Of a stretch of 41,294 bases of DNA, positions 1-21,482 are shown in pieces. The position numbers and the translations under genes were made by a program. The notes under the pieces were generated by a model. It made no database searches, was not told where the DNA came from, and saw nothing but the letters and a program-made list of their open reading frames with translations. This DNA comes from a virus (Duplodnaviria; Heunggongvirae; Uroviricota; Caudoviricetes), in the IMG/VR virus record IMGVR_UViG_645951847_000024; one strand, written 5' to 3'. Numbering within the stretch: the first letter of the stretch is position 1; each line of letters begins with the position of its first letter.

Positions 1-3000
1 TTGCTCACCTTTACGGATTCGCGTCAGGGTACCGCTCGCATTTCAGCCCGCTTACAGCAGGATGCCGATAAAGCGACGTTGCGAGCTCTTTGTTACCAGG
101 AGCTGGCAAATATTACAGAGCCTTCAGCAAAACTCAGCCCGGCACACTGTGCACTGTTAGAGAAAGTTATTAGCCAGTTTTCTGTCCTCCCTTTAAAAAA
201 TTCCATCGACGCGCTGAAAAAAGCGATGGCTGCGAATGAGGAGCTTAGCCCGACGGACATTCAGGCACTTAAAATTATTGAGCCGATGGTGAGTTCCTTA
301 AGCACGGAGCATGCTGAAGCGATGCAAATACTTCAGGCTAACTCTGGCAATCAGCAGAAGAAAACCATGTCATGGCAAACGCTGTCTGAACAGCTGGTTG
401 GCAGTGTGGACCTTGCCGATAGAATGAGAGGCAGTTTTAAAGAATTGTCTGGGCTTGATCTTACTAAACAACAGTTTGCAGATTTTTGTTTATACAGCGA
501 GTTTGGTCGCCGCCCTAAAAATGCCTGGACCCTCGAAAGTCTGGGTCTGGTAGCCATTCACTATCCATTCATTGATAAAGTTACAACCTGCCCGCAGGAC
601 TGGAAGACATTATTACCCGATCCCGATAAGCAATTAGCGGAATGGCGTAATTTATTGAAGATTACTCTTGATTTCTTTATCCGTGAAAACAGTGCCGTTT
701 TTTACGAAAACGAGCAATACCCTCGCTGGATGGGGGCACGTTTCCCGGTAAAAATGCTCCAGGGGCCAGATAAAAAAAACAAAGGGCAGAAACGTGATCA
801 ACTTTGGCCACAAATACGCGATCGCCATTATAACCGGGTCATTAAGCTATTAATCGCAGTCTTTCCGGCAATACAACCTGAGCAGGCTCACTGGAAATCG
901 TTAGTTAACCACTTAATGATTGAGGTCTGGGATGCAATTCGACCCTGCTTACGTCAGTTTGAGTCGGGTTATCAGCTGGATATTAAACAACAAGCTGAAT
1001 TTTACAGTCCAAAGCAAGTGTGGCGTTGCCCCTATACTCGACGTGCGTTAGACGTCACGTTGCTGGGATACTCTCCGTATTTGCCGGGTAGCAAAGAAAT
1101 TGCACCTGAAAAAGCAGTGTTGATTGAAATGCCTGAGCTTCCTGTACGTCACTGGCGTTTGTCTGGTGGTGGAGAAATCGCCCGAGAAGAACGTCTGGAG
1201 TGGCTGGAAAGTAATGCGCTGATTCAACATGCCCGCGAGGAAGGATTATGGTCTACTCGCAGCGACCGACTGGCCCTGAAAGATAGCTGGTATCGTCTGG
1301 AGGAACACTCTGCGCAGAGAACGCCTGAGCAGAACCAGTTTAATGAAAAACAATTTAAGTCAGGCAAAGTTAATGTGCTGAACTGTTCCACGACCATGGA
1401 GATGGGGGTGGATATTGGTGGTATGAGTTTGGTGGCAATGAACAACGTTCCTCCAGCGCCGGCAAATTATTTGCAACGTGCAGGTCGCGCGGGGCGTCGT
1501 GGAGAGAGTGCATCTGCTGCCATTACGTTATGTAAAAACACGGCGCATGGAATGGAGGTATTCAAAGACCCCCTCTGGGCGTTCAACACTACTGCCAGTG
1601 CGCCACGGGTTCGTTTTGGGAGCAGTAGTATTGTTCAACGACATGTTAATGCCCTGGTTTTAGGTCTGTTTTTACGAGCTGAAGTTCCTGATGCGACAAA
1701 ACTGAGTTGCAAATGGTTCTTTGAAGGTGATGAGAGCCAGTGTCTTCGTTTTCTCCATTGGTTAAATCACCAGGCCGATCAGCTGGCGGATAAACTTAAA
1801 CGCCTTACTCAGGGAACCGTACTGATGTCATTGACGGCAACCCAGCTCTTGACCCGCACACAAGCAATGATGCAGCAGGTTGATATCCGCTGGAGAAGCC
1901 AACTTGCGATACTGTTGGAAAATATCGAAGCGTTGAAGGCGGATAACAGCGCGTGGGAAGAAACACCAGCAGGTAAAGCCATCGCTTATCAGCTTCGTGA
2001 TTATCGCGGTGCATATCTGTTTTCTAAACTCATTAGTGAAGCGTTCCTGCCGGGGCATGGTTTCCCGGTTGGCGTAGTCAATTTCAATTATCTGACGGCA
2101 GATGAGCTGGAAAAACGTCGCGCAATAAAAGCCACTCAGGCTGACCCTAATGAAGGGGGAGAAAGCTTTTCTCGTCGTATTGAAAAATTGCCCAGCCGTG
2201 ATTTGCCTACAGCATTACGCGAGTATGCGCCTGGTGCAGATGTGGTATTGGGCGGAAAAGTATATCGTTCCTCGGGCATTATGCTTGGCAAGGTGCTTGC
2301 CAGCGGGCAGGAGCTGTCAGGCGATCATCATATTCCGTGGTTCTGGCATTGCCGTAAATGTGGTGCGGGGGCAACCAGTACTACCCATCCTGTCGAATGT
2401 AGTCACTGCAAAGCGGATATACAGCAACTTGATGTGAAGCGTTATTTACAGCCTGTTGGTTTTGCGACAGATATTCGTTATCAGGCACATAATGATGTAT
2501 CCATGCCTGCACAACTTCCCTGGAAAGATCCACGTGTTCTTGTACCGTCTTCGGTGTGGGTTTCTTTACCCGATGCTGGGCTAGGACGTTACCGTTTTAG
2601 CCATAGTGGGGAATTGTTCCACTTCAGTGAAGGGGAATTTGGGCACGGCTACGCAATTTGCCTCTCATGTGGTCGGGCAGAATCTCAAACTCAACCCCAG
2701 CGTACCCCTGAAAATCTAAAGAACCCAGAGAGGGAAAATACGCATTACCTGTTGCGAGGGGGCAGTAACGATCGTCAGGGGAGCAATAAATTGTGCCACG
2801 GTCATGTGCATAAAGATCTGTGGTTGGGATATAGCAGTCGTACAGATATGGTTGAGCTGCAACTCAATGATGATAATGGCCTGTTGATCCGTGATGAGGT
2901 TGCCGCGCGTTCCCTTGCGGTCGCTTTGCGTGAAGGGTTAGCGCATAAATTGGGTATCGAAAATACTGAGCTGGGCGTGACGACGCAGCAAGCGCGCGAT

Positions 3001-3279
3001 ATCAATGGCTATACCGGATATTCCATCTTCATTTACGACAATAATGCGGGTGGTGCAGGTTATGCAGTGCAATTGATCGACCATTGGGCTGATGTCTTTA
3101 ATTACGCCAGAAAATTGCTCGATTGCAGTTGCGATAAATTCTGTCACCACTGCTTGCTCAGCTACGACAGTCAGCATTATGTCAACAGATTAGATCGTCA
3201 CCATGCATTAACCCTGCTTACCAATGTACGGTTGCAGCGACTTAACCTCGCGCCAGATATAGCGCGGCGATTTTTTTGA
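1..3279 (+). CDS. C-terminal part (5' end cut by window) of a large SF2 helicase with a Cys-rich DUF1998-like zinc-ribbon C-terminal domain; probably host-encoded
   Basis: Helicase C-domain motifs TMEMGVDIGG and QRAGRAGRRG in the translation; C-terminal Cys clusters (CRKCGAG...CSHC, CLSCG, CSCDKFCHHC). ORF starts at window position 1, so truncated. Family assignment from memory only. Confidence 0.6.
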   Translation: MLTFTDSRQGTARISARLQQDADKATLRALCYQELANITEPSAKLSPAHCALLEKVISQFSVLPLKNSIDALKKAMAANEELSPTDIQALKIIEPMVSSLSTEHAEAMQILQANSGNQQKKTMSWQTLSEQLVGSVDLADRMRGSFKELSGLDLTKQQFADFCLYSEFGRRPKNAWTLESLGLVAIHYPFIDKVTTCPQDWKTLLPDPDKQLAEWRNLLKITLDFFIRENSAVFYENEQYPRWMGARFPVKMLQGPDKKNKGQKRDQLWPQIRDRHYNRVIKLLIAVFPAIQPEQAHWKSLVNHLMIEVWDAIRPCLRQFESGYQLDIKQQAEFYSPKQVWRCPYTRRALDVTLLGYSPYLPGSKEIAPEKAVLIEMPELPVRHWRLSGGGEIAREERLEWLESNALIQHAREEGLWSTRSDRLALKDSWYRLEEHSAQRTPEQNQFNEKQFKSGKVNVLNCSTTMEMGVDIGGMSLVAMNNVPPAPANYLQRAGRAGRRGESASAAITLCKNTAHGMEVFKDPLWAFNTTASAPRVRFGSSSIVQRHVNALVLGLFLRAEVPDATKLSCKWFFEGDESQCLRFLHWLNHQADQLADKLKRLTQGTVLMSLTATQLLTRTQAMMQQVDIRWRSQLAILLENIEALKADNSAWEETPAGKAIAYQLRDYRGAYLFSKLISEAFLPGHGFPVGVVNFNYLTADELEKRRAIKATQADPNEGGESFSRRIEKLPSRDLPTALREYAPGADVVLGGKVYRSSGIMLGKVLASGQELSGDHHIPWFWHCRKCGAGATSTTHPVECSHCKADIQQLDVKRYLQPVGFATDIRYQAHNDVSMPAQLPWKDPRVLVPSSVWVSLPDAGLGRYRFSHSGELFHFSEGEFGHGYAICLSCGRAESQTQPQRTPENLKNPERENTHYLLRGGSNDRQGSNKLCHGHVHKDLWLGYSSRTDMVELQLNDDNGLLIRDEVAARSLAVALREGLAHKLGIENTELGVTTQQARDINGYTGYSIFIYDNNAGGAGYAVQLIDHWADVFNYARKLLDCSCDKFCHHCLLSYDSQHYVNRLDRHHALTLLTNVRLQRLNLAPDIARRFF

Positions 3280-3390
3280 TACCGATTTGCATTTCATTTG
3301 ATACCGCTGAAAAACGCCGATACGCAACTTATTTGATACTAAATCGGCGCTTTTCTTTTGAGTTTTAGAATGAGTTTTTAAGCGCTCATT
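3280..3390. mobile_element. Candidate prophage right-end region (transposase-binding repeats?); exact terminus not resolved
   Basis: Three TTTGATAC(C/T) motifs at about 3273, 3298 and 3343, and a 13-bp inverted repeat (GAAAAACGCCGAT / ATCGGCGCTTTTC, about 3309-3357) between the host stop codon and the mom stop. No match to the canonical Mu terminal sequence. Confidence 0.3.
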
Positions 3391-4123
3391 CACTCTCTTT
3401 CAAACCAGTTTTAACTGTTTGTGGTTTTGGGTAAGGCTGGACTTTGAATAGCTTTGTGTTGAGGCGTTTTCTGGCCCTCTTGTTCAGAAACCGGATGTAA
3501 CGAAACTGTCGGAACTTATGAACACTGGCTCTGTCAATATTAGCCCTCAGATGTTCACCTCGTTGTCCGCCTCGTTTAATGGCATTCCTGCAAATCTCGT
3601 GATACCACTCGCCATCAAGTTCATAGAATATTGATTCATGGCTGCCTACATAATCAAAATTGCTTGCCTGATACACGACACCAAGACAGCCACAACGCTC
3701 ATCTGCAAACGACTGAACCCACTGTACCTGCGGATAAAGCTGCCTGATTAGCTTGAGCGCGTAACTGATTGCCCTTGATTCGGAGTTTCTCGGCATACAG
3801 TCATGCAGCCATAGCCGGTTAAGCTCCATATATTCTCGGTTCTGCGTACCCGTTACGACGCGTGCACCACTGTTTGGGTTAAGGGCGTAACCCCATTGCA
3901 TTACGCCAACAAGTTCCCGTTCTGAAAATATGCCCAGATGAAGGTAGGAGTTATTTACGAAACGGTGGCTGTAATGTTTATTGACGATGACCAGTCTGGC
4001 CAGCCAGCAACTTATTGTCTCAACCCGCAACTCACGGGAGCCATAACCAACGATATTGTCGTTATAGCGAATAAGTTCAGGCGTGCTGATGATTCGGGAT
4101 GTGACTTGCTTTCTGTTCCCCAC
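3386..4123 (-). CDS. mom: Mom-like DNA modification protein (anti-restriction)
   Basis: Last gene before the prophage right end, directly downstream of and overlapping a clear Com homologue, as in Mu com-mom. Identity by synteny only; Mom sequence not recalled. Confidence 0.55.
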
Positions 4124-4894: not shown

Positions 4895-5140
4895 TTACAT
4901 CATAGTACCGTCAGTTCCGGGCTGAACCGGCTCTGGTTGCTCTACGGGTTGAGGATCATTTTCCGTGCTGTTTTCAGCCGGAGAACGGCCAACCATTCGG
5001 GCCAGCACTTCATCAACATATGCGTCGATTTGTGCCTCAAAATCCTTGCGAACCTGCGCCTTCAGCACGCGGTTCACTTCTTCAGAATAAAGTGCCTGTT
5101 TGACAAGCTCTTCAGTAACCGTGCCTTTAATCTCTGGCAT
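4895..5140 (-). CDS. Hypothetical acidic 81-aa protein with Pro/Glu-rich C-terminal tail
   Basis: Protein-like amphipathic N-terminal half; strong SD (AAAAGGAG) 8 nt upstream of the ATG on the minus strand. Confidence 0.5.
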   Translation of the reverse strand: MPEIKGTVTEELVKQALYSEEVNRVLKAQVRKDFEAQIDAYVDEVLARMVGRSPAENSTENDPQPVEQPEPVQPGTDGTMM

Positions 5141-5175
5141 GAATATTCTCCTTTTGCAGGTATATTGCCCCGTTA

Positions 5176-5358
5176 TCAGAGCGGGGTCGGGTCGTTTGGG
5201 GATGACGGTGCCTGTGCTGTTTTACTGAGTTTTTCAGCTGCCGCATCATCAATTTTACGGCGAATATAATTTCTGATGACCTTATAACCACCGCTCACCA
5301 GATATAACGCACTGACCACAGCGCAGAAATAAAGCAGCATTGTATGAACGAATGTCAT
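5176..5358 (-). CDS. Hypothetical small membrane protein (60 aa, single N-terminal TM helix)
   Basis: Hydrophobic stretch LLYFCAVVSALYLVSGG followed by a basic region; weak SD (AAGG) upstream. Confidence 0.45.
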   Translation of the reverse strand: MTFVHTMLLYFCAVVSALYLVSGGYKVIRNYIRRKIDDAAAEKLSKTAQAPSSPNDPTPL

Positions 5359-5426
5359 ATAAGCTTACCTTTGATATTGACTACATAATTCGTTATCGGG
5401 TAAAAACATCGAAGCGACTGATAACC

Positions 5427-5451
5427 ACTCCTTCGGGAGTATTTTTATTTT
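5427..5451 (+). terminator. Hairpin with UUCG loop followed by T-run (plus-strand terminator-like)
   Basis: ACTCC-TTCG-GGAGT at 5427-5440 followed by ATTTTTATTTT. Confidence 0.3.
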
Positions 5452-5469
5452 CCTTTATGGGTTAGGTAG

Positions 5470-5514
5470 CTCCCGCCAGCCATATCATGACCGGCGGGAT
5501 TTTTTTATTCTGTT
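5470..5514 (+). terminator. GC-rich hairpin followed by T7 run (plus-strand terminator-like), overlapping the esterase stop codon
   Basis: TCCCGCC (5471-5477) pairs with GGCGGGA (5493-5499), then TTTTTTTATT. On the minus strand the same hairpin is not followed by a T-run. Confidence 0.4.
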
Positions 5515-7544
5515 ACCGCTTTTTTCACTTCCACCACAATGCTGTCAATCAGCACCGGGTAAGTTGCATTTTTTGTGATATCCGTTACGCGGAGTTTGTC
5601 CACCGGGAAAGTTCCTACTGGTGACTGCGTCAGGGTAAACGCGGCACCATCCTGACCATCAATAACCGGAATAACCTGAAGGCTGTTATTTCCTGCAAAA
5701 CGGAAGGCCAGCGTATGCCATTCATTATCAAATGCACCAAAGGTTCCCAGTTTCTGGTTATTTGTTGCCACTTTTGCATTGTGGTACATCACATTCAGGT
5801 CTTTTGCGTCTGTCTGGATGTAGAACGATGCCAGCAGATTATTCCCTGCATCCCCTGTCAGGGTGACACCCTGCGGCAGAGAGGAAACCGGCCAGTAAAG
5901 CCCCATGACATACTGGTTTGCCACCAGGTCGCCAGGTACTTTAAAACGACAACTGATTAAACCACCATTTTTCAGCAGTTCAGCACCAGTACCGGCATCA
6001 TGATCCAGATACCAAGATGATTTACCTGTTTCCTTGGTCAGTTTCATTGCCTTACCACCTGTGCCTCCTGCATCACTGATAATTTCAGCTTTACCGCCAG
6101 CCGGCTCCCAGCCCTGGGCTTTCAGATTTCCTTCTGACTCACTGACACGATAAGACAGCAGTGTTGTGGTTACTGCTTCAGTTTCTGAAGGTGACGGCAC
6201 TGGTGCTTCAGTTTCAGAAGATGGAACATCGGCTTTTACTGTGGTTCGCCCCGCATGAGTCAGAACTGCCGTGGCCAGACGGTCGGAAATAATCCCACGA
6301 CGTGCCCATGAACTGAAATGGCTGGCCCGGTCCGCAGATGTCCAGGTGGCGGCACTGTTACGCCACGTTGAGCCGTAATAACCAATGGATTCAATATCCG
6401 GGTCTTCTGCCGGATTGTTGGTGGGTACATTCGCGTCATTTTCATCTGTCATTAATGGAACGAAATGAATGTTTTTATCTGTTTTGTTTTTGTAGCCGCC
6501 ATAGATTGCCTGGTATGCCGGTTCATTTTTCTGTTTCCAGAAATACGTGGTATCGCCACAAATCCACGGAACGCCAGCAGCACTGCCACCGGTACACTGT
6601 TCCGCCTGTTCAGCCAGGTCTGCGCGGAATTTTTCCACCATCGCCAGAAACAGCGCGGAATGCTCCGTCGGCTTCGCATCAATATCAAACTCGCCCTGCA
6701 TCCACACCACAGCAAGCAGGCGGTTTTTCGGGTTCTTCGCCAGTGCCGCTTTTGTCCGGCTGATTAAGTCCTTATACAGCGGCTTATCCACACCCCAGCG
6801 GGCTGAGTCCTCTGAAGCACCCGTGCTGTCACTGTACGTGCCGTCAGCACCCGCCGTGAATGCAGAACCACCACGGCAGCAGGGAACCAGCAGAATCCCC
6901 GCATCTGCCGGAATAAACGGCAGCAGTTTTTTGGCAATGTGAAGCCCCTGACCCACGGTGCCATATTGCCCTTTAGCCACATCCGCTTTCGGGTGATTTT
7001 TTCCACTCATATCCTGCACATCATGCAGACAGTGGTCGGCCAGAATGATGTCGTTATACTGACAGGCTTTACCTCCCGGCGTGACTGTACTGCGACGGGC
7101 TAACTGCATAATACGCGGTTCGGGGCGGTCATATGTCTCCGGCAGTGGCAGACCTTCACCGTAAGCCATACCGTTTGACTGACCAGCAAGAACCACCACG
7201 TAATACCAGGAAGGGGAGCTGGAAGCAGTTTCATTTCCTGACGGACGGGTATGTGTTTCAGCATTATCCCAGTCTGACGGTTCAGCAGTACCGGCAACAT
7301 CAGCACTTAACGGAATGACCGCACCAATACCCGCTCCGGTAATTTCCACACTCGGATCACCGGATACTGGCCTTACCCACAGGCAATCCCGTGTATTAAA
7401 ACTGATGAGACAGTCAGCAAATGTCATTCCTCCTTTTGTTTCGGCCGGAGGAAAGGGAGCCTCAAGAAATGCCGCTGTACCACCGGAAACTTTAACAGTA
7501 AAGTTTCCGGGCATTGATGATAGTTGAACCCATTTGGACGTCAT
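5505..7544 (-). CDS. Predicted sialate O-acetylesterase-like cargo protein (SGNH/SASA-type esterase with extra N- and C-terminal domains), NanS-p-like
   Basis: 679 aa; VVLAGQSNGMAYGEG resembles the GQSN catalytic-Ser block of sialic-acid-specific acetylesterases; sits between gin and com-mom, where Mu has no gene. Family from memory. Confidence 0.6.
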   Translation of the reverse strand: MTSKWVQLSSMPGNFTVKVSGGTAAFLEAPFPPAETKGGMTFADCLISFNTRDCLWVRPVSGDPSVEITGAGIGAVIPLSADVAGTAEPSDWDNAETHTRPSGNETASSSPSWYYVVVLAGQSNGMAYGEGLPLPETYDRPEPRIMQLARRSTVTPGGKACQYNDIILADHCLHDVQDMSGKNHPKADVAKGQYGTVGQGLHIAKKLLPFIPADAGILLVPCCRGGSAFTAGADGTYSDSTGASEDSARWGVDKPLYKDLISRTKAALAKNPKNRLLAVVWMQGEFDIDAKPTEHSALFLAMVEKFRADLAEQAEQCTGGSAAGVPWICGDTTYFWKQKNEPAYQAIYGGYKNKTDKNIHFVPLMTDENDANVPTNNPAEDPDIESIGYYGSTWRNSAATWTSADRASHFSSWARRGIISDRLATAVLTHAGRTTVKADVPSSETEAPVPSPSETEAVTTTLLSYRVSESEGNLKAQGWEPAGGKAEIISDAGGTGGKAMKLTKETGKSSWYLDHDAGTGAELLKNGGLISCRFKVPGDLVANQYVMGLYWPVSSLPQGVTLTGDAGNNLLASFYIQTDAKDLNVMYHNAKVATNNQKLGTFGAFDNEWHTLAFRFAGNNSLQVIPVIDGQDGAAFTLTQSPVGTFPVDKLRVTDITKNATYPVLIDSIVVEVKKAVTE

Positions 7545-7643
7545 AATAATCAGCCTGTTCCTGAATAAACTGAATTATCATATCCACAGACCGATAAACG
7601 CCATTTTGCGTTAATTCAGTAAAGGCCCAACAAAGGGAGCGTC

Positions 7644-8204
7644 TTATTTTTCCGAAACGCTCGCAGGATAATAACGATAAAGGGTTGAAAGGCCGATATC
7701 AAAAATAAGTGCCACCTGTCTTCGACTGACACCCCCGGCCAGTAAACGCCCGACCTGCTCGTATTGTTCCTGCGTGAGACGACGGGGTCTGCCGCCGGTT
7801 CGTCCCCTTTCACGGGCAGCTGCAAGACCAGCCCGTGTCCGTTCGACAATTAATTCACGCTCCATTTCTGCCAGCGCACCCATTATGTGAAAAAAGAAGC
7901 GCCCCATGGGGGTTGACGTATCAATGTTGTCAGTAAGACTACGAAAATTTATCCCCTGTTGCTGTAATTCATCTGTCAGCGCAACAAGGTGGCGCATACT
8001 GCGCCCCAGCCTGTCCAGTTTCCAGACCATCAGTGTGTCACCGGGTTTTAGTTTCTTCAGTGCCCGCTTCAGTCCCGGCCGCTGTGTCGTTTTACCACTC
8101 ATTTTATCTTCAAAAATCTGCTCACATCCTGCACATTCCAGCGCATTTCTTTGTAAACCTGTGTTCTGGTCATTTGTTGATACGCGTATATAGCCAATCA
8201 GCAT
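7644..8204 (-). CDS. gin: Serine DNA invertase (Gin/Hin/Pin/Cin family)
   Basis: MLIGYIRVSTNDQNTGLQRNALECAGCEQIFEDK...GRFFFHIMGALAEMERELI is near-identical in pattern to Mu Gin; catalytic Ser in RVSTNDQ; adjacent to an inverted tail-fibre segment. Confidence 0.93.
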   Translation of the reverse strand: MLIGYIRVSTNDQNTGLQRNALECAGCEQIFEDKMSGKTTQRPGLKRALKKLKPGDTLMVWKLDRLGRSMRHLVALTDELQQQGINFRSLTDNIDTSTPMGRFFFHIMGALAEMERELIVERTRAGLAAARERGRTGGRPRRLTQEQYEQVGRLLAGGVSRRQVALIFDIGLSTLYRYYPASVSEK

Positions 8205-8259
8205 GTATTTACCTTCCTTAAAAAGAGGTGGAAAGGCCTTTTAAAGCAGATATACGGCA

Positions 8260-8283
8260 TCCCTGAAACCTCGGTTTACGGGA
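8260..8283. other. gix/hix-like crossover site A (gin-proximal)
   Basis: TCCCTGAAACC-TC-GGTTTACGGGA: imperfect 11-2-11 palindrome of the AAACC-NN-GGTTT type used by Gin/Hin invertases. Confidence 0.5.
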
Positions 8284-8629
8284 TACTGTAAACAGGGCCG
8301 CGAATGCCCTGCCATCGAACGGAGCGGCTGTTGCAGCGAATAAACTCGCCACTCCAAGAAATATTAATGGTGTCCCATTTGACGGAACGCAGGATATAAA
8401 TATTACATCGGGGATGACGCAGTCTGTGGCTGACTCACGTTATGTTCAAAGCATTCGAAGAGGTTCAAGGTCAACGATTGGAATGCAATATAATATTTTT
8501 GAGGTTCCTGACGGATGCGTACTTACAGGGCTTGATGTCGCTGGTGATGGTAATGCAACGGTAACCGCATATTATCGACCTGTTCAGTTTCTGATAGATG
8601 GTTCGTGGAAAACAGCTTCCAGCGCATAA
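8273..8629 (+). CDS. Alternative tail-fibre C-terminal cassette (S'v), silent in this orientation
   Basis: Frame open from 8267; encodes GLRDTVNRAANALPSNGAAVAANKLATPRNINGVPFDGTQDINITSGMTQSVADSRYVQ, homologous to residues about 196-255 of the minus-strand tail fibre (GLRETVNKAADALPSGGTAVAANRLATPRNINGVPFDGTLDINITSGMTQSTADGRYVQ); both tips end YYRPVQ...W.T.SS. Confidence 0.6.
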   Translation, partial: GLRDTVNRAANALPSNGAAVAANKLATPRNINGVPFDGTQDINITSGMTQSVADSRYVQSIRRGSRSTIGMQYNIFEVPDGCVLTGLDVAGDGNATVTAYYRPVQFLIDGSWKTASSA

Positions 8630-8708
8630 AAGTGCAGTAGTTCAAAAAACAGATTATCTGAATAAATATATGATGATTTTGTCTTTTCAACAAAAACAAG
8701 GTGAAATA

Positions 8709-9230
8709 ATGGAGCTTATTAACGTAAAACGATATTACCCGGAACACAAACCCTATGGTGAGGATGTTCAGTATTTCCAGAGTGAGGACGGAAGGGATTT
8801 TTATGAATCTATCCCGCTTTTCACAAAGAAATACAAACTCTGTATTTCGCCTGTAACGGGTATTATCTGCTCTGTTGCTGAAGATGTCTCTGCTTTATAT
8901 CCGGCAGGTTTTACTGTTGTTGAAGTGGACGAACTGCCGGAAGGTGTGAATATTGACGGTAACTGGCAGTTTTCTGATGGCCTGATATCAAAGGTGCCGG
9001 TAAACTGGAAGACGGTTGCTGAAAAGCGCCGCTCATCGCTGCTCCAGGAAGCCAACGAAACTGTGGATGACTGGAAAACGGAATTAAAACTGGACATGAT
9101 TAGCGATGAAAATAAATTACAGCTGACGCGCTGGATGGCGTATATCCGACAGCTTAAAGAAATGCACTTTAATGATATTGCCAGTGAGGGGCATTACCAG
9201 GCGATTCCCTGGCCGGAAAAACCGGAATAA
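8709..9230 (+). CDS. Tail-fibre assembly (chaperone) protein, U'-like
   Basis: Follows S'v on the same strand; AAGGTGA SD before ATG 8709 (MELINVKRYYPEHK...); C-terminal ...IPWPEKPE resembles Tfa family ends. Family from memory. Confidence 0.65.
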   Translation: MELINVKRYYPEHKPYGEDVQYFQSEDGRDFYESIPLFTKKYKLCISPVTGIICSVAEDVSALYPAGFTVVEVDELPEGVNIDGNWQFSDGLISKVPVNWKTVAEKRRSSLLQEANETVDDWKTELKLDMISDENKLQLTRWMAYIRQLKEMHFNDIASEGHYQAIPWPEKPE

Positions 9231-9264
9231 TTCAGAGGGTGCATTCAGCACCCTTTTCTGTGGT

Positions 9265-10176
9265 TTACACTGAACTTACCGTTCTCCAGGCATTATTAAT
9301 ATAAATCTGAACCGGGCGATAATAGACCCCACCGATATTGTCCGCAGACCGGGAGCCGGTTTCCTGCACGTTAATTCCGGAAAGCATACAACCGGAAGGT
9401 GCGCTGTAATTCCATGACATTTCATTGCCTCCGGGTGAATGATAGCTCTGTGCTCCAAGCTGAACATTCTGTACATACCGGCCATCTGCGGTTGACTGCG
9501 TCATTCCTGACGTGATGTTGATATCCAGCGTTCCGTCAAAAGGAACACCATTAATATTTCTTGGGGTGGCGAGTCTGTTTGCTGCCACGGCGGTTCCACC
9601 CGATGGCAGGGCATCAGCAGCCTTATTTACCGTTTCCCGTAAACCAACGTTATCGATAAAAGCGCCTTTATCCGGAATGTCTGCGCCGTTCTGCTCCCTG
9701 CGCAGGTAACGGTTATCACCTTCGCTTTTGCTGTAAACATCCAGATTATTACGGGCGGTTCCCGCATTCTCCAGGTCGGCAAGGTTCTGATCCTTCGCCA
9801 GAGCATTAACGTCACCGGGACCAAGACTGTTTTTTGTGGCAAGCGCCCCAAGACCAAGATAACCACGGGCAAGACGCTGGGCTTCCGCACCGGCATCAGC
9901 AATTTCTTTCAGGTTGTTTTTCCGGGAAAAGGCATTCGCAGCGATAATGGCTTTAATGGACAGCGTAAGCTGGTTTAACTGCGCCTTATCCGGCTGAATA
10001 CTGGCTTCAGCCAGAATATTCAGCAGTTCGGCCTGGAGAATATTCAGCCAGTCCTGACCAATCCAGCTGATACCTTTTTGTCCGTCACCTTCGGTAAACC
10101 AGGTGGTGGTATTACTCTGCGCCGGTGCCAGCGCAGGCATATTCGCCACGCCGGAATTATTATCAACATGGAACAT
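9265..10176 (-). CDS. Tail fibre protein S (constant part joined to Sv tip in current orientation)
   Basis: Start taken at internal ATG (MFHVDNNSGVANMPALAPA) overlapping the upstream stop (TAATG); position after baseplate genes. Confidence 0.8.
   Translation of the reverse strand: MFHVDNNSGVANMPALAPAQSNTTTWFTEGDGQKGISWIGQDWLNILQAELLNILAEASIQPDKAQLNQLTLSIKAIIAANAFSRKNNLKEIADAGAEAQRLARGYLGLGALATKNSLGPGDVNALAKDQNLADLENAGTARNNLDVYSKSEGDNRYLRREQNGADIPDKGAFIDNVGLRETVNKAADALPSGGTAVAANRLATPRNINGVPFDGTLDINITSGMTQSTADGRYVQNVQLGAQSYHSPGGNEMSWNYSAPSGCMLSGINVQETGSRSADNIGGVYYRPVQIYINNAWRTVSSV
9635..9659. other. gix/hix-like crossover site B (inside tail-fibre gene S)
   Basis: TCCCGTAAACC-AA-CGTTATCGATA on plus; its inner arm is the exact reverse complement of the inner arm of site A (GGTTTACGGGA). 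S/S' homology begins exactly here. Confidence 0.5.
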
Positions 10177-10736
10177 TAAATATTCTCCTCTTCGTGACTG
10201 TTTGCATATACGTAAATAAACGTCTGCCATGCAGGCTTATAACGGTTCAGAATACATTCCAGCGCACCGCCTTCATAAATACGCAGCGGCGTGAGAATAT
10301 CATCCAGCACATTCATATTCCGGTAGCCGGTTTCACTGTTAATCGTGACAATACTGACCCACTGTGAATCCGGTGATGGCTGAATATCTATTTCATAACC
10401 AAACTCTGCCGCAAACCGGATATAAAATTCACGGTTAAGAGAGGGTTTCATCCGGTATTTATTCCCGGCATAACGCTGACGCTCCTGAATTGTTGCGCCG
10501 GTCATATCACATTCCGGTAACCCCAGATAACGCTCCCAGTCTTCCAGCAGCAGACGGGATGAATCAGGAAAACGTTCTGCCAGCATCTGGTTACCGGTCC
10601 AGGAAACACGCTCCGTGGAATGACTGAGGCCCAGGCACAAAGCCGCAAGAACGGATGACGGCCGCTTATCCCATGCCAGCCCGTCAGGCAGCAACTGCAA
10701 CAGGGCACGCTGATGCGGGGTCAGGGTTACAGCCAT
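10176..10736 (-). CDS. Baseplate/tail protein, Mu gp48-like
   Basis: Position between baseplate J-like gene and tail fibre; translationally coupled. Confidence 0.6.
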   Translation of the reverse strand: MAVTLTPHQRALLQLLPDGLAWDKRPSSVLAALCLGLSHSTERVSWTGNQMLAERFPDSSRLLLEDWERYLGLPECDMTGATIQERQRYAGNKYRMKPSLNREFYIRFAAEFGYEIDIQPSPDSQWVSIVTINSETGYRNMNVLDDILTPLRIYEGGALECILNRYKPAWQTFIYVYANSHEEENI

Positions 10737-21075: not shown

Positions 21076-21482
21076 GCACGGGCCTGTTCCGCTTTGTTAC
21101 CGGTCTTTTTCCGGGGAGCATCCTGTCCGGCTTCGGCTTCGGCTTCGGCTTCGGCTTCGGCTTCGGCTTCGGCTTCGGCTTCGGCTTCGGCTTCGGCTTC
21201 GGCTAAATCTGTACCGGCCACTGCATGAACCACACCCGCCACGCTCCCCGCATCATCAGCAGACGTCTGTAGTATTCGCACAGTGAGGCATGGCTCCTCC
21301 TCCAGTCGGGCAAGCTGCTCCGGGGTGACCTCAACCTGCTGACGTCCACGCGTGAACAGGAACCCCGCACGACGAAACGCCGAACGACTGCAACGCACTT
21401 CTGCCAGCACCGTGACAGAATTGTCACCACTGACCTGAAGACCTGAATCATCTGTTGCTGCCACAGTGTGATGTTCATTCAT
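21072..21482 (-). CDS. Small head-module protein (Mu gp35-like) with an internal (Glu-Ala)12 tract
   Basis: 136 aa after the major capsid gene; C-terminal tract AEAEAE... encoded by the hexanucleotide repeat. Confidence 0.55.
   Translation of the reverse strand: MNEHHTVAATDDSGLQVSGDNSVTVLAEVRCSRSAFRRAGFLFTRGRQQVEVTPEQLARLEEEPCLTVRILQTSADDAGSVAGVVHAVAGTDLAEAEAEAEAEAEAEAEAEAEAEAEAGQDAPRKKTGNKAEQARA
21131..21202. repeat. Perfect tandem hexanucleotide repeat (CTTCGG)12 on plus = (CCGAAG)12 on minus, in frame
   Basis: Twelve identical 6-bp units read directly from 21131 to 21202. Confidence 0.95.

What the first reader, a model, noticed from the sequence alone, without database searches (positions are those of the whole stretch)
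8260..9659. Crossover-site core dinucleotides differ (TC vs TT): switch may be frozen
With the shared arm GGTTTACGGGA on the right, site A reads ...AAACC-TC-GGTTTACGGGA and site B (minus strand) reads ...TAACG-TT-GGTTTACGGGA. Serine invertases need identical 2-bp cores; a mismatch normally blocks productive inversion. The outer arm of site B is also degenerate. Together with the missing second tfa this suggests a decaying or locked switch.
Basis: partly seen in the sequence, partly recalled or inferred. Interest (0 to 1): 0.55.

Follow-up and report, generated by a model that had tools for sequence, protein, structure and literature searches.

The report
Latched phage tail-fibre inversion switch
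This is the ordinary Gin-type DNA-inversion switch that swaps the tail-fibre tip of a Mu-like prophage of Shiga-toxin E. coli, caught with a one-base mismatch between its two crossover sites that probably holds it in one orientation but does not show decay.

Summary
Site A (8259-8284) reads ATCCCTGAAACC-TC-GGTTTACGGGAT. Site B (9634-9659, minus strand) reads TTATCGATAACG-TT-GGTTTACGGGAA. They are the only two such sites in the window and flank a 1373-bp tail-fibre cassette next to an intact invertase 75% identical to Mu Gin.

The window is an Sp18-type Mu-like prophage. "Decaying" is not supported. The site B outer arm and the single tfa are conserved in all relatives read. The same invertase protein sits in copies that have flipped.

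Among near-identical copies in complete E. coli genomes, the second core base is polymorphic at both sites. Site A carries TC, TT or a 3-nt TTC; site B carries TC or TT. All nine inverted copies have matched cores: seven TC/TC and two TT/TT. These are the two products expected when an exchange between TC and TT sites is replicated. One lysogen lineage with TC/TC cores occurs in both orientations and is otherwise identical over 14.5 kb. Mismatched and TTC copies occur only in the window's orientation.

Best reading: a working switch held by a core mismatch, a state that resolves itself on a rare inversion. The inversion rate of this allele was not measured.

The parts
7644..8204 (-). DNA invertase gene, 186 aa (Gin/Hin/Cin/Pin-type small serine recombinase)
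   Evidence: Pfam Resolvase 1.4e-51 and HTH_7 1.7e-14. Best solved relative is Mu Gin (3UJ3/4M6F), E 2e-91, colinear over residues 1-182, 75% identity. Annotated as DNA-invertase ECs_4992 in Sakai Sp18.
8085..8204 (-). Presumed recombinational enhancer (Fis sites) inside the first ~40 codons of the invertase gene; inferred only
   Evidence: This is where the enhancer lies in gin, hin and cin (established knowledge). Nucleotide identity to Mu gin is 82% in codons 1-20, with 76% third-position identity, higher than in most of the gene. No Fis-site test was done.
8259..8284 (+). Crossover site A (invertase side), ATCCCTGAAACC-TC-GGTTTACGGGAT; core 8271-8272 = TC
   Evidence: The half-sites match each other at 10 of 12 positions. 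In other copies this core is TT (24 records) or TTC (36 records).
8273..9645 (.). Invertible segment, 1373 bp
   Evidence: A synthetic flip of exactly this segment matches 23 complete E. coli genomes full-length, 7 of them at >=99%. The junctions were read.
8267..8629 (+). Silent alternative fibre tip (120 codons, in frame through the core), used after inversion
   Evidence: Open frame NLGLRDTVNR...WKTASSA*. In inverted genomes it is fused to the constant part and followed by tfa.
8709..9230 (+). Tail fibre assembly protein (tfa), 173 aa. It is co-oriented with the silent tip, so it lies downstream of the fibre gene only after inversion.
   Evidence: Pfam Caudo_TAP 1.9e-18. It is the single tfa in all 15 related cassettes.
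9265..9645 (-). Variable tip of the fibre gene in the present orientation
   Evidence: Translation NVGLRETVNK...WRTVSSV*. It is part of the annotated 303-aa tail fibre protein WP_000469162.1.
9634..9659 (-). Crossover site B (inside the fibre gene), TTATCGATAACG-TT-GGTTTACGGGAA; core 9646-9647 (AA on +, TT on -)
   Evidence: In other copies the core is TC (75 records exact) or TT (89 records exact). TC and TT both give Val (GTC/GTT), so the fibre protein is unchanged (reading frame).
9648..10176 (-). Constant N-terminal part of the tail fibre gene
   Evidence: ORF 9265-10176. It is shared by both orientations.

Best explanation
This is a functional Gin-type host-range switch of an active Sp18-type Mu-like phage. 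In this copy a one-base difference between the two crossover cores latches it. The mechanism below is inferred from homology to Gin/Hin. Invertase dimers bind the two 26-bp sites. With the enhancer in the start of the invertase gene they form the synaptic complex. They cut both sites at the central dinucleotide, leaving 2-nt 3' overhangs, and rotate 180 degrees. Here the TC overhang of site A would face the AA overhang from site B, giving a C.A mismatch. The TT overhang of site B would face GA, giving a T.G mismatch. Re-joining in the inverted configuration is therefore strongly disfavoured, and the complex reseals in the parental orientation. The prophage thus stays with the 9265-9645 tip fused to the fibre gene. 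Rarely the mismatched ends are joined. Replication of that heteroduplex gives one daughter with TC at both sites and one with TT at both sites. Both are inverted and both have matched cores, so they can switch freely again. The mismatch is therefore a transient, self-resolving state in a phage population that carries both TC and TT cores. It is not a step in gene decay.
For: Shown:
1. The anatomy is that of a Gin system: an intact invertase 75% identical to Gin, two gix-like sites, and two in-frame fibre tips plus a tfa.
2. The phage is mobile. The prophage end at about window 3259 abuts a different host sequence in each of the nine copies compared, the window included. Sp18 is described as predicted intact with an invertible host-specificity region (PMC2669165).
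3. The family norm is matched TC/TC. Of 25 site pairs from IMG/VR and metagenomes, 23 are TC/TC, 2 are TT/TT and none is mismatched. T is therefore the derived base.
4. In complete E. coli genomes the second core base varies at both sites in copies that are otherwise identical over 2.6-4 kb. In these stretches the variable positions among near-identical copies are 7636, 8272, 9646, 10171 and 10491. In an 18-kb alignment the core states cut across backbone clades. Sakai (TT/TT) and O111:H8 99.1145 (TT/TC) are sisters. One consensus backbone carries TC/TT, TC/TC and TT/TT.
5. The neighbouring arm differences stay linked to their flanks. The base at -1 stays with the outer arm and the base at +12 moves with the inner arm. 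This places exchange between -1 and +12, an interval that contains the central dinucleotide.
6. All nine inverted copies with both Sp18-type junctions have matched cores: TC/TC x7 and TT/TT x2. These are the two segregants predicted.
7. Matched cores flip. FORC_044 (inverted) and AR-0428 and NCCP 15739 (window orientation) share one insertion site. They show 0 differences in 14.5 kb after flipping.
8. Mismatched copies are all in the window orientation. They are TC/TT in 06_3235, strains 113 and 143 and F1273, with 21 clonal strains sharing strain 113's insertion site (113 and 143 read; for the rest TC/TT is inferred from hit lists or not checked), and TT/TC in strain 150 and 99.1145.
From the literature: a single core base-pair change in one hix site prevents ligation in the inverted orientation (PMC4817059). 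Localized conversion at cix cores is the subject of Iida & Hiestand-Nauer 1986/1987 (cited in PMC4134206). What those two papers found is from my own knowledge; I could not read them.
Against: No inversion rate was measured, because assemblies give only one consensus per culture. An inverted copy with mismatched cores is not expected under the model, since inversion resolves the mismatch. Its absence therefore cannot show that the latch holds. Matched-core copies are also mostly in the window orientation: about 9 inverted against several dozen. So orientation bias exists without any mismatch. It may reflect selection at infection or a generally slow switch. The simple model does not by itself give TT/TC in the window orientation. 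That state needs partial mismatch repair, homologous recombination between TC/TC and TT/TT phages, or a second mutation. Such recombination could also create TC/TT copies from matched parents. In that case only one historical conversion event is strictly required. Record counts are not phylogenetically independent. This invertase might tolerate a G.T / A.C mismatch better than Hin does.
Confidence: 0.6

Rival explanations
1. Decaying or dead switch. The cassette has lost a tfa, one arm has degenerated and the cores no longer match, so the element is on its way to a fixed fibre gene.
For: The cores differ. There is only one tfa. 182 records are in the window orientation against 23 inverted. A further allele with a 3-nt spacer (TTC) at site A is found in 36 records, all in the window orientation. 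It looks like a true lock.
Against: The single tfa and the TTATCGATAACG arm are conserved across relatives whose Tfa is only 61% identical. Arm symmetry equals that of Mu gix. The invertase, both tips and the tfa are intact, and the invertase is the same protein (WP_000904930.1) and tip and tfa sequences are identical to those in copies that have inverted. The phage is transposing to new sites.
Confidence: 0.1
2. The mismatch is functionally irrelevant. This invertase joins G.T / A.C mismatched overhangs well enough that the switch flips at near-normal rate, and core states simply churn.
For: All four TC/TT combinations exist in otherwise near-identical phages. That pattern is easiest to produce if exchange across mismatches is frequent.
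Against: For Hin, one core base-pair change prevents ligation in the inverted orientation (PMC4817059). The 21 clonal isolates sharing strain 113's insertion site lie in the window orientation; the members seen in other hit lists fit TC/TT. No inverted copy has mismatched cores.
Confidence: 0.15
3. The core polymorphism has nothing to do with strand exchange. C>T point mutations arose independently at the two sites and were shuffled by homologous recombination between phages. Alternatively it is an assembly artefact.
For: The phage backbones are mosaic, with some incompatible SNP patterns and recombination tracts. Recombination with a crossover inside the 1.37-kb segment would produce mismatched combinations.
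Against: Of the handful of variable positions in 2.6-4 kb, two are the homologous core bases of the two sites. Changes are confined to the core, while differences 1 nt and 12 nt away stay linked to their arms. That is too short a tract for RecA-type conversion between 78%-identical repeats. The same states recur in genomes from many laboratories, including Sanger-sequenced Sakai.
Confidence: 0.12

Closest known systems
Phage Mu G segment / Gin
   Same: Mu-like phage. The invertase is 75% identical to Gin. The sites match gix at 19-21 of 26 positions, and the usual family core is TC as in Mu. The invertase gene sits next to one site, and the segment fuses alternative C-termini to a constant fibre N-terminus.
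   Different: The segment is 1.37 kb against 3 kb. It has one tfa instead of two (U and U'). The fibre tips are unrelated in size. In this copy the two cores differ, whereas Mu's are identical. A nanS-p-like esterase module lies between the invertase and com/mom.
Phage P1 C segment / Cin: inversion at sites with unequal central dinucleotides ('localized conversion', Iida & Hiestand-Nauer 1986, 1987)
   Same: Same enzyme family and the same 12+2+12 site plan. In the wild population here, inverted copies carry either one or the other parental dinucleotide at both sites. That is the outcome those titles describe.
   Different: Those were laboratory selections with quasi-sites. Here it is a natural polymorphism seen across genomes, with no rates. 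I could not read the two papers. They are known to me from memory and from the reference list of PMC4134206.
Hin / hix substrates with one mutated core (pRJ862)
   Same: One base-pair difference between the two cores. The expected behaviour is cleavage, rotation and resealing only in the parental orientation (PMC4817059).
   Different: Hin controls flagellin promoters and not a fibre gene. The effect has not been measured for this enzyme or this particular T/C difference.
Shigella phage SfMu G segment
   Same: A natural Mu-like phage with a 1-bp change in one of the two inverted repeats next to the central bases. Its authors suggest reduced or abolished G inversion because induced and lytic lysates had the same host range (PMC4406740).
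   Different: In SfMu the change is beside the core and not in it. No population data or converted derivatives were reported there.
E. coli EC958 prophage Phi1/Phi2/Phi4 tail-fibre switches
   Same: 26-bp sites ending in GGTTTAC.AGAA-type arms, with TC or TT cores matched within each prophage. Both orientations are present in one culture (PMC4134206).
   Different: Those are 2-3 kb segments described as mirror-image fibre and minor-fibre gene sets in other prophages, with no core mismatch.

Membership tests
Gin/Hin/Cin/Pin DNA-invertase switch | Small serine recombinase with an N-terminal catalytic domain (active-site Ser near residue 9-10) and a C-terminal HTH | tested here: met
   Resolvase 1.4e-51 and HTH_7 1.7e-14. 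Gin 3UJ3/4M6F at E 2e-91, with RVSTNDQ aligned. 75% identity to Gin.
Gin/Hin/Cin/Pin DNA-invertase switch | Two 26-bp crossover sites (12-bp imperfect inverted half-sites around a 2-bp core) in inverted orientation flanking the segment | tested here: met
   Sites at 8259-8284 and 9634-9659. They match Mu gix at 19 and 21 of 26 positions. They are the only two in the window.
Gin/Hin/Cin/Pin DNA-invertase switch | Identical central dinucleotide at the two sites | tested here: not met
   TC against TT in this window. The feature is met in 25 of 25 related pairs outside complete genomes and in all inverted copies. The locus belongs to the family, but this allele lacks the feature needed for efficient inversion.
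Gin/Hin/Cin/Pin DNA-invertase switch | Fis-dependent recombinational enhancer in cis, inside the 5' part of the invertase gene | tested here: inconclusive
   The 5' 60 nt of the gene are 82% identical to Mu gin, with raised third-position identity. No Fis-site model was applied and protein-coding constraint is not excluded.
Gin/Hin/Cin/Pin DNA-invertase switch | The segment actually inverts | tested here: met
   Met for the same cassette with matched cores. 23 genomes carry the flipped form. One insertion lineage has both orientations with 0 other differences in 14.5 kb. For the TC/TT allele of this window it is not testable with assemblies.
Phage host-range cassette (Mu G / P1 C type) | Alternative fibre C-termini fused in frame at the crossover site, each followed by its own tail-fibre assembly gene | tested here: not met
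   Two in-frame tips are present. There is only one tfa, co-oriented with the tip that is silent here. The one-tfa design is shared by all 15 two-site relatives. This is therefore a conserved variant of the plan and not a loss.

The most novel reading that the evidence does not exclude
The crossover dinucleotide may itself act as an evolvable second-order control. In wild Sp18-type phages of Shiga-toxin E. coli the switch would move between three states. Free states have matched cores (TC/TC or TT/TT). Latched states have mismatched cores (TC/TT or TT/TC) and heal themselves through a rare inversion followed by replication. Permanently locked states carry a 3-nt TTC spacer, which may be a scar of failed exchange. 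If so, a sizeable share of prophages is held in the E. coli-infective fibre orientation.
Probability: 0.35. Interest if true: 0.55.

Novelty: new member of a known kind. Interest (0 to 1): 0.4.

Why it matters
The switch itself is textbook biology. The new element is a natural record of what laboratory work on Cin, Gin and Hin predicts. In circulating phages of a major pathogen group, the two bases where the strands are exchanged are the most variable positions of the locus. The pattern of alleles and orientations fits heteroduplex formation and segregation at the core. Practically, the fibre type, and so the host range, of particles released by a given STEC lysogen may depend on a single base in each site. 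Annotation pipelines also mislabel the silent tip and the flipped fibre as 'hypothetical' or 'incomplete'. The data give a cheap experimental system: natural isogenic prophages that differ only in core state.

Tried and rejected
1. Alternative placement of the core. I looked for a register in which both sites share a dinucleotide. The arms align without gaps, and natural recombinants keep the -1 base with the outer arm and swap the +12 base with the inner arm. The polymorphic base follows neither arm. No other register is supported.
2. Extra crossover sites, as in a multi-inversion Min-like system. None was found in the window.
3. A lineage test for the window's own insertion. The host/prophage junction (window 2950-3550) is in none of 5,426 complete genomes, so sister lysogens could not be compared.
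4. A four-junction query to find sister lysogens of inverted or mismatched copies. It succeeded for the matched TC/TC lineage. It gave only clonal TC/TT isolates for strain 113 and no sisters for 06_3235 or Z1323MEC0002.
5. A genome-contig scan with the site pattern gave only chance hits in Calothrix and a Pseudonocardiaceae MAG.
6. A full joint census of core states was not possible. The genome search returns at most 60 rows and no alignments. I report marginal counts and sequence-verified examples only.
7. Johnson's review of DNA invertases could not be retrieved under the PMC identifier I tried, which I gave from memory.
8. The enhancer was compared only by nucleotide identity with Mu gin. 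This is inconclusive.
Full report
WHAT IS THERE

The window carries most of a Mu-like prophage of the Sp18 type. The region 7600-10200 is 100% identical to many Shiga-toxin E. coli chromosomes. In O157:H7 Sakai the same sequence is annotated as 'prophage Sp18, Mu-like phage' with a DNA-invertase, two tail fibre genes and a tail fibre assembly gene.

On the minus strand the order is as follows:
- baseplate genes
- a 303-aa tail fibre gene (9265-10176)
- the antisense of a tfa (8709-9230, Caudo_TAP) and of a second fibre tip (8267-8629)
- a 186-aa invertase (7644-8204; Resolvase + HTH_7)

The invertase aligns over residues 1-182 with Mu Gin (3UJ3/4M6F, E 2e-91) and is 75% identical to it, with the RVSTNDQ motif conserved.

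THE OBSERVATION

It is correct to the base.
- Site A is 8259-8284, ATCCCTGAAACC-TC-GGTTTACGGGAT.
- Site B is 9634-9659, and on the minus strand reads TTATCGATAACG-TT-GGTTTACGGGAA.

These are the only two such sites in the window. They match Mu gix (TTATCCAAAACC-TC-GGTTTACAGGAA) at 19 and 21 of 26 positions. They head a 182-nt, 78% inverted repeat that encodes the shared start of the two fibre tips. The crossover lies inside a Val codon of the fibre gene. TC and TT give GTC and GTT, so the protein is the same either way.

THE TWO SUPPORTING ARGUMENTS FOR DECAY DO NOT HOLD

The outer arm of site B matches its inner arm at 7 of 12 positions, exactly as in functional Mu gix. That arm is conserved, with at most one or two base changes, in every relative read.

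The single tfa is a family design. Fifteen two-site cassettes from IMG/VR fall in three size classes (1315, 1373 and 1423 bp), with Tfa 61-100% identical to this one. All have one tfa and two tips. The Mu G segment has two tfa genes.

DOES THE CASSETTE INVERT?

I built the flipped version of 7600-10200 and searched 5,426 complete E. coli genomes. The window orientation is full-length in 182 records. The flipped form is full-length in 23, seven of them at >=99% identity.

The invertase protein is the same accession (WP_000904930.1) in both sets.

The strongest case is one lysogen lineage. FORC_044 (flipped), AR-0428 and NCCP 15739 (window orientation) have the prophage at the same base of the same host gene. 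After flipping the segment they show no difference in 14.5 kb of host flank plus prophage. All three have TC at both sites. So the enzyme and the sites work when the cores match.

THE CORE IS THE VARIABLE SPOT OF THE LOCUS

Reading the sites in fetched genomes gives these states, written as (site A, site B):
- Window orientation, TC/TT: the window, 06_3235, strains 113 and 143, F1273 (by sequence); 93_0495 inferred from a perfect 2,601-nt match.
- Window orientation, TT/TT: Sakai, 2013C-3250.
- Window orientation, TT/TC: strain 150, O111:H8 99.1145.
- Window orientation, TC/TC: FDAARGOS_293, AR-0428, NCCP 15739.
- Window orientation, TTC/TT: F1273, second copy.
- Window orientation, TTC/TC: FRIK2455.
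- Flipped, TC/TC: FORC_044, 2-6-2, 07_3636.
- Flipped, TT/TT: Z1323MEC0002, 2014C-3050.

Junction queries give marginal counts per record. In the window orientation, site A is TTC in 36 records, TT in 24 and TC in roughly 65-70. Site B is TT in 89 and TC in 75.

Flipped copies with both Sp18-type junctions are TC/TC in seven genomes and TT/TT in two. None is mismatched and none has TTC.

Outside this collection, 25 site pairs from IMG/VR and metagenomes are TC/TC (23) or TT/TT (2). TC is therefore the ancestral core, as in Mu. T is derived within the Sp18 subgroup.

Near-identical copies differ over 2.6-4 kb only at 7636, 8272, 9646, 10171 and 10491. Positions 8272 and 9646 are the second core bases of the two sites.

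In an 18-kb alignment of nine copies, the core states cut across the backbone. Sakai and 99.1145 share private SNPs but differ at 9646. One consensus backbone occurs as TC/TT, TC/TC and flipped TT/TT.

The base next to the core on the outer side (C at A, G at B) always stays with the outer arm. The first inner-arm difference, 12 nt in, always moves with the segment. The polymorphic base follows neither arm. Exchange therefore falls between -1 and +12, an interval that contains the central dinucleotide.

HOW THIS FITS THE KNOWN MECHANISM

Serine invertases cut both strands at the central dinucleotide, leave 2-nt 3' overhangs, rotate 180 degrees and re-join. [quoted passage not shown]

I worked through the strands for TC at A and TT at B; this is inference. 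After exchange the chromosome's plus strand carries TC-type information at both new sites, and the minus strand carries TT-type at both. Replication of a rare joined product therefore gives one TC/TC daughter and one TT/TT daughter. Both are flipped and both are now matched. This is the 'localized conversion' of Iida and Hiestand-Nauer (1986, 1987). They are cited in PMC4134206; their content is from my own knowledge.

The wild data agree with this. Flipped copies are only TC/TC or TT/TT. The derived T has reached both sites. Mismatched copies are confined to the unflipped orientation.

WHAT REMAINS OPEN

The absence of flipped mismatched copies follows from the model itself, so it is not a measure of the latch.

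Matched copies are also mostly unflipped. This prophage sits at a different chromosomal site in each of the nine copies compared, the window included. These are therefore independent insertions of a mobile phage. I infer, by analogy with Mu, that the bias may reflect the fibre needed to infect E. coli plus slow switching afterwards.

TT/TC in the unflipped orientation is not produced by the simple scheme. It needs partial mismatch repair, homologous recombination between TC/TC and TT/TT phages, or another mutation. The same recombination could also produce TC/TT copies such as this window from matched parents.

The 21 clonal cattle isolates sharing one insertion lie in the window orientation and, where checked, are TC/TT. 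This fits a stable latch, but the time depth is unknown.

The TTC allele is new to me. A 3-nt spacer should disable the site (inference). It is never seen flipped, but I cannot say how it arose.

COMPARISON AND NOVELTY

The locus is a member of the Gin/Hin/Cin/Pin family by enzyme, sites, gene content and demonstrated inversion. The one defining feature that this copy fails is identical cores.

Sp18's invertible region was already noted (PMC2669165). A natural Mu-like phage with a repeat mutation next to the core and no apparent G inversion has been described (SfMu, PMC4406740).

What is new is modest: the population-level footprint of exchange at the core, and the frequency of latched and probably locked alleles in STEC prophages.

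VERDICT

- Observation: confirmed.
- 'Frozen': plausible for this allele but unmeasured.
- 'Decaying': not supported.

Noticed in passing
window 8271-8272; L067 2525-2550 (F1273, second copy); L105 1823-1850 (FRIK2455): A third allele of site A has a 3-nt spacer, ATCCCTGAAACC-TTC-GGTTTACGGGAT. It is exact in 36 complete-genome records and always in the window orientation. It pairs with TT (e.g. F1273, E2865, PV0838) or TC (FRIK2455) at site B. It is probably a permanently locked switch. Its origin is unexplained and may be a scar of failed exchange.
   Followed up: partly
window ~3259 (prophage end TATAGCGCGGCGATTTTTTTGATACC...): The prophage abuts a different host sequence in each of the nine copies compared, the window included. 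Examples: sorM in Sakai, inside a P2-like and a lambdoid prophage, next to a fimbrial operon, frv, folA, comR and ynjB. In the window it interrupts a DEAD/DEAH-box helicase gene, which is part of SpLE6 in Sakai. That junction occurs in none of 5,426 complete genomes. The phage is actively transposing.
   Followed up: yes
window 4895-7544 (-): A DUF826 - DUF1378 - 679-aa SASA/DUF6645 esterase module lies between com/mom and the invertase. The same gene trio sits in the late region of a lambdoid prophage in 2013C-3250 (L062 6291-8830). From memory it resembles the nanS-p sialate O-acetylesterase module of Stx phages. It appears to be a lambdoid cargo module transplanted into a Mu-like phage.
   Followed up: no
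window 21128-21204: A perfect hexanucleotide tandem repeat, CGGCTT x 12.8, lies inside the HI1506-related protein gene. Copy number differs between otherwise near-identical prophage copies, and the annotated products range over about 118-140 aa.
   Followed up: partly
window 8709-9230 and relatives L010-L049: The cassette has one tfa for two fibre tips. In the orientation of this window the expressed tip has no tfa downstream. The design is conserved in all 15 related cassettes. Either this tip folds without a chaperone or the tfa is supplied in another way.
   Followed up: partly
F1273 (L057 and L067); SMN197SH3: Some genomes carry two copies of the prophage with different switch states. F1273 has TC/TT at 1.79 Mb and TTC/TT at 4.23 Mb. 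SMN197SH3 has one copy in each orientation, both TC/TC. Co-resident copies offer a route for recombination between core alleles.
   Followed up: no
window ~8218-8403 (-); loci L052, L067: RefSeq annotates a 61-aa 'hypothetical protein' (WP_071526725.1) across site A on the minus strand. It is called frameshifted in TTC-allele genomes. In flipped genomes the fibre is labelled 'hypothetical protein' and the silent tip 'incomplete phage tail protein'. These are likely annotation artefacts of the switch.
   Followed up: no
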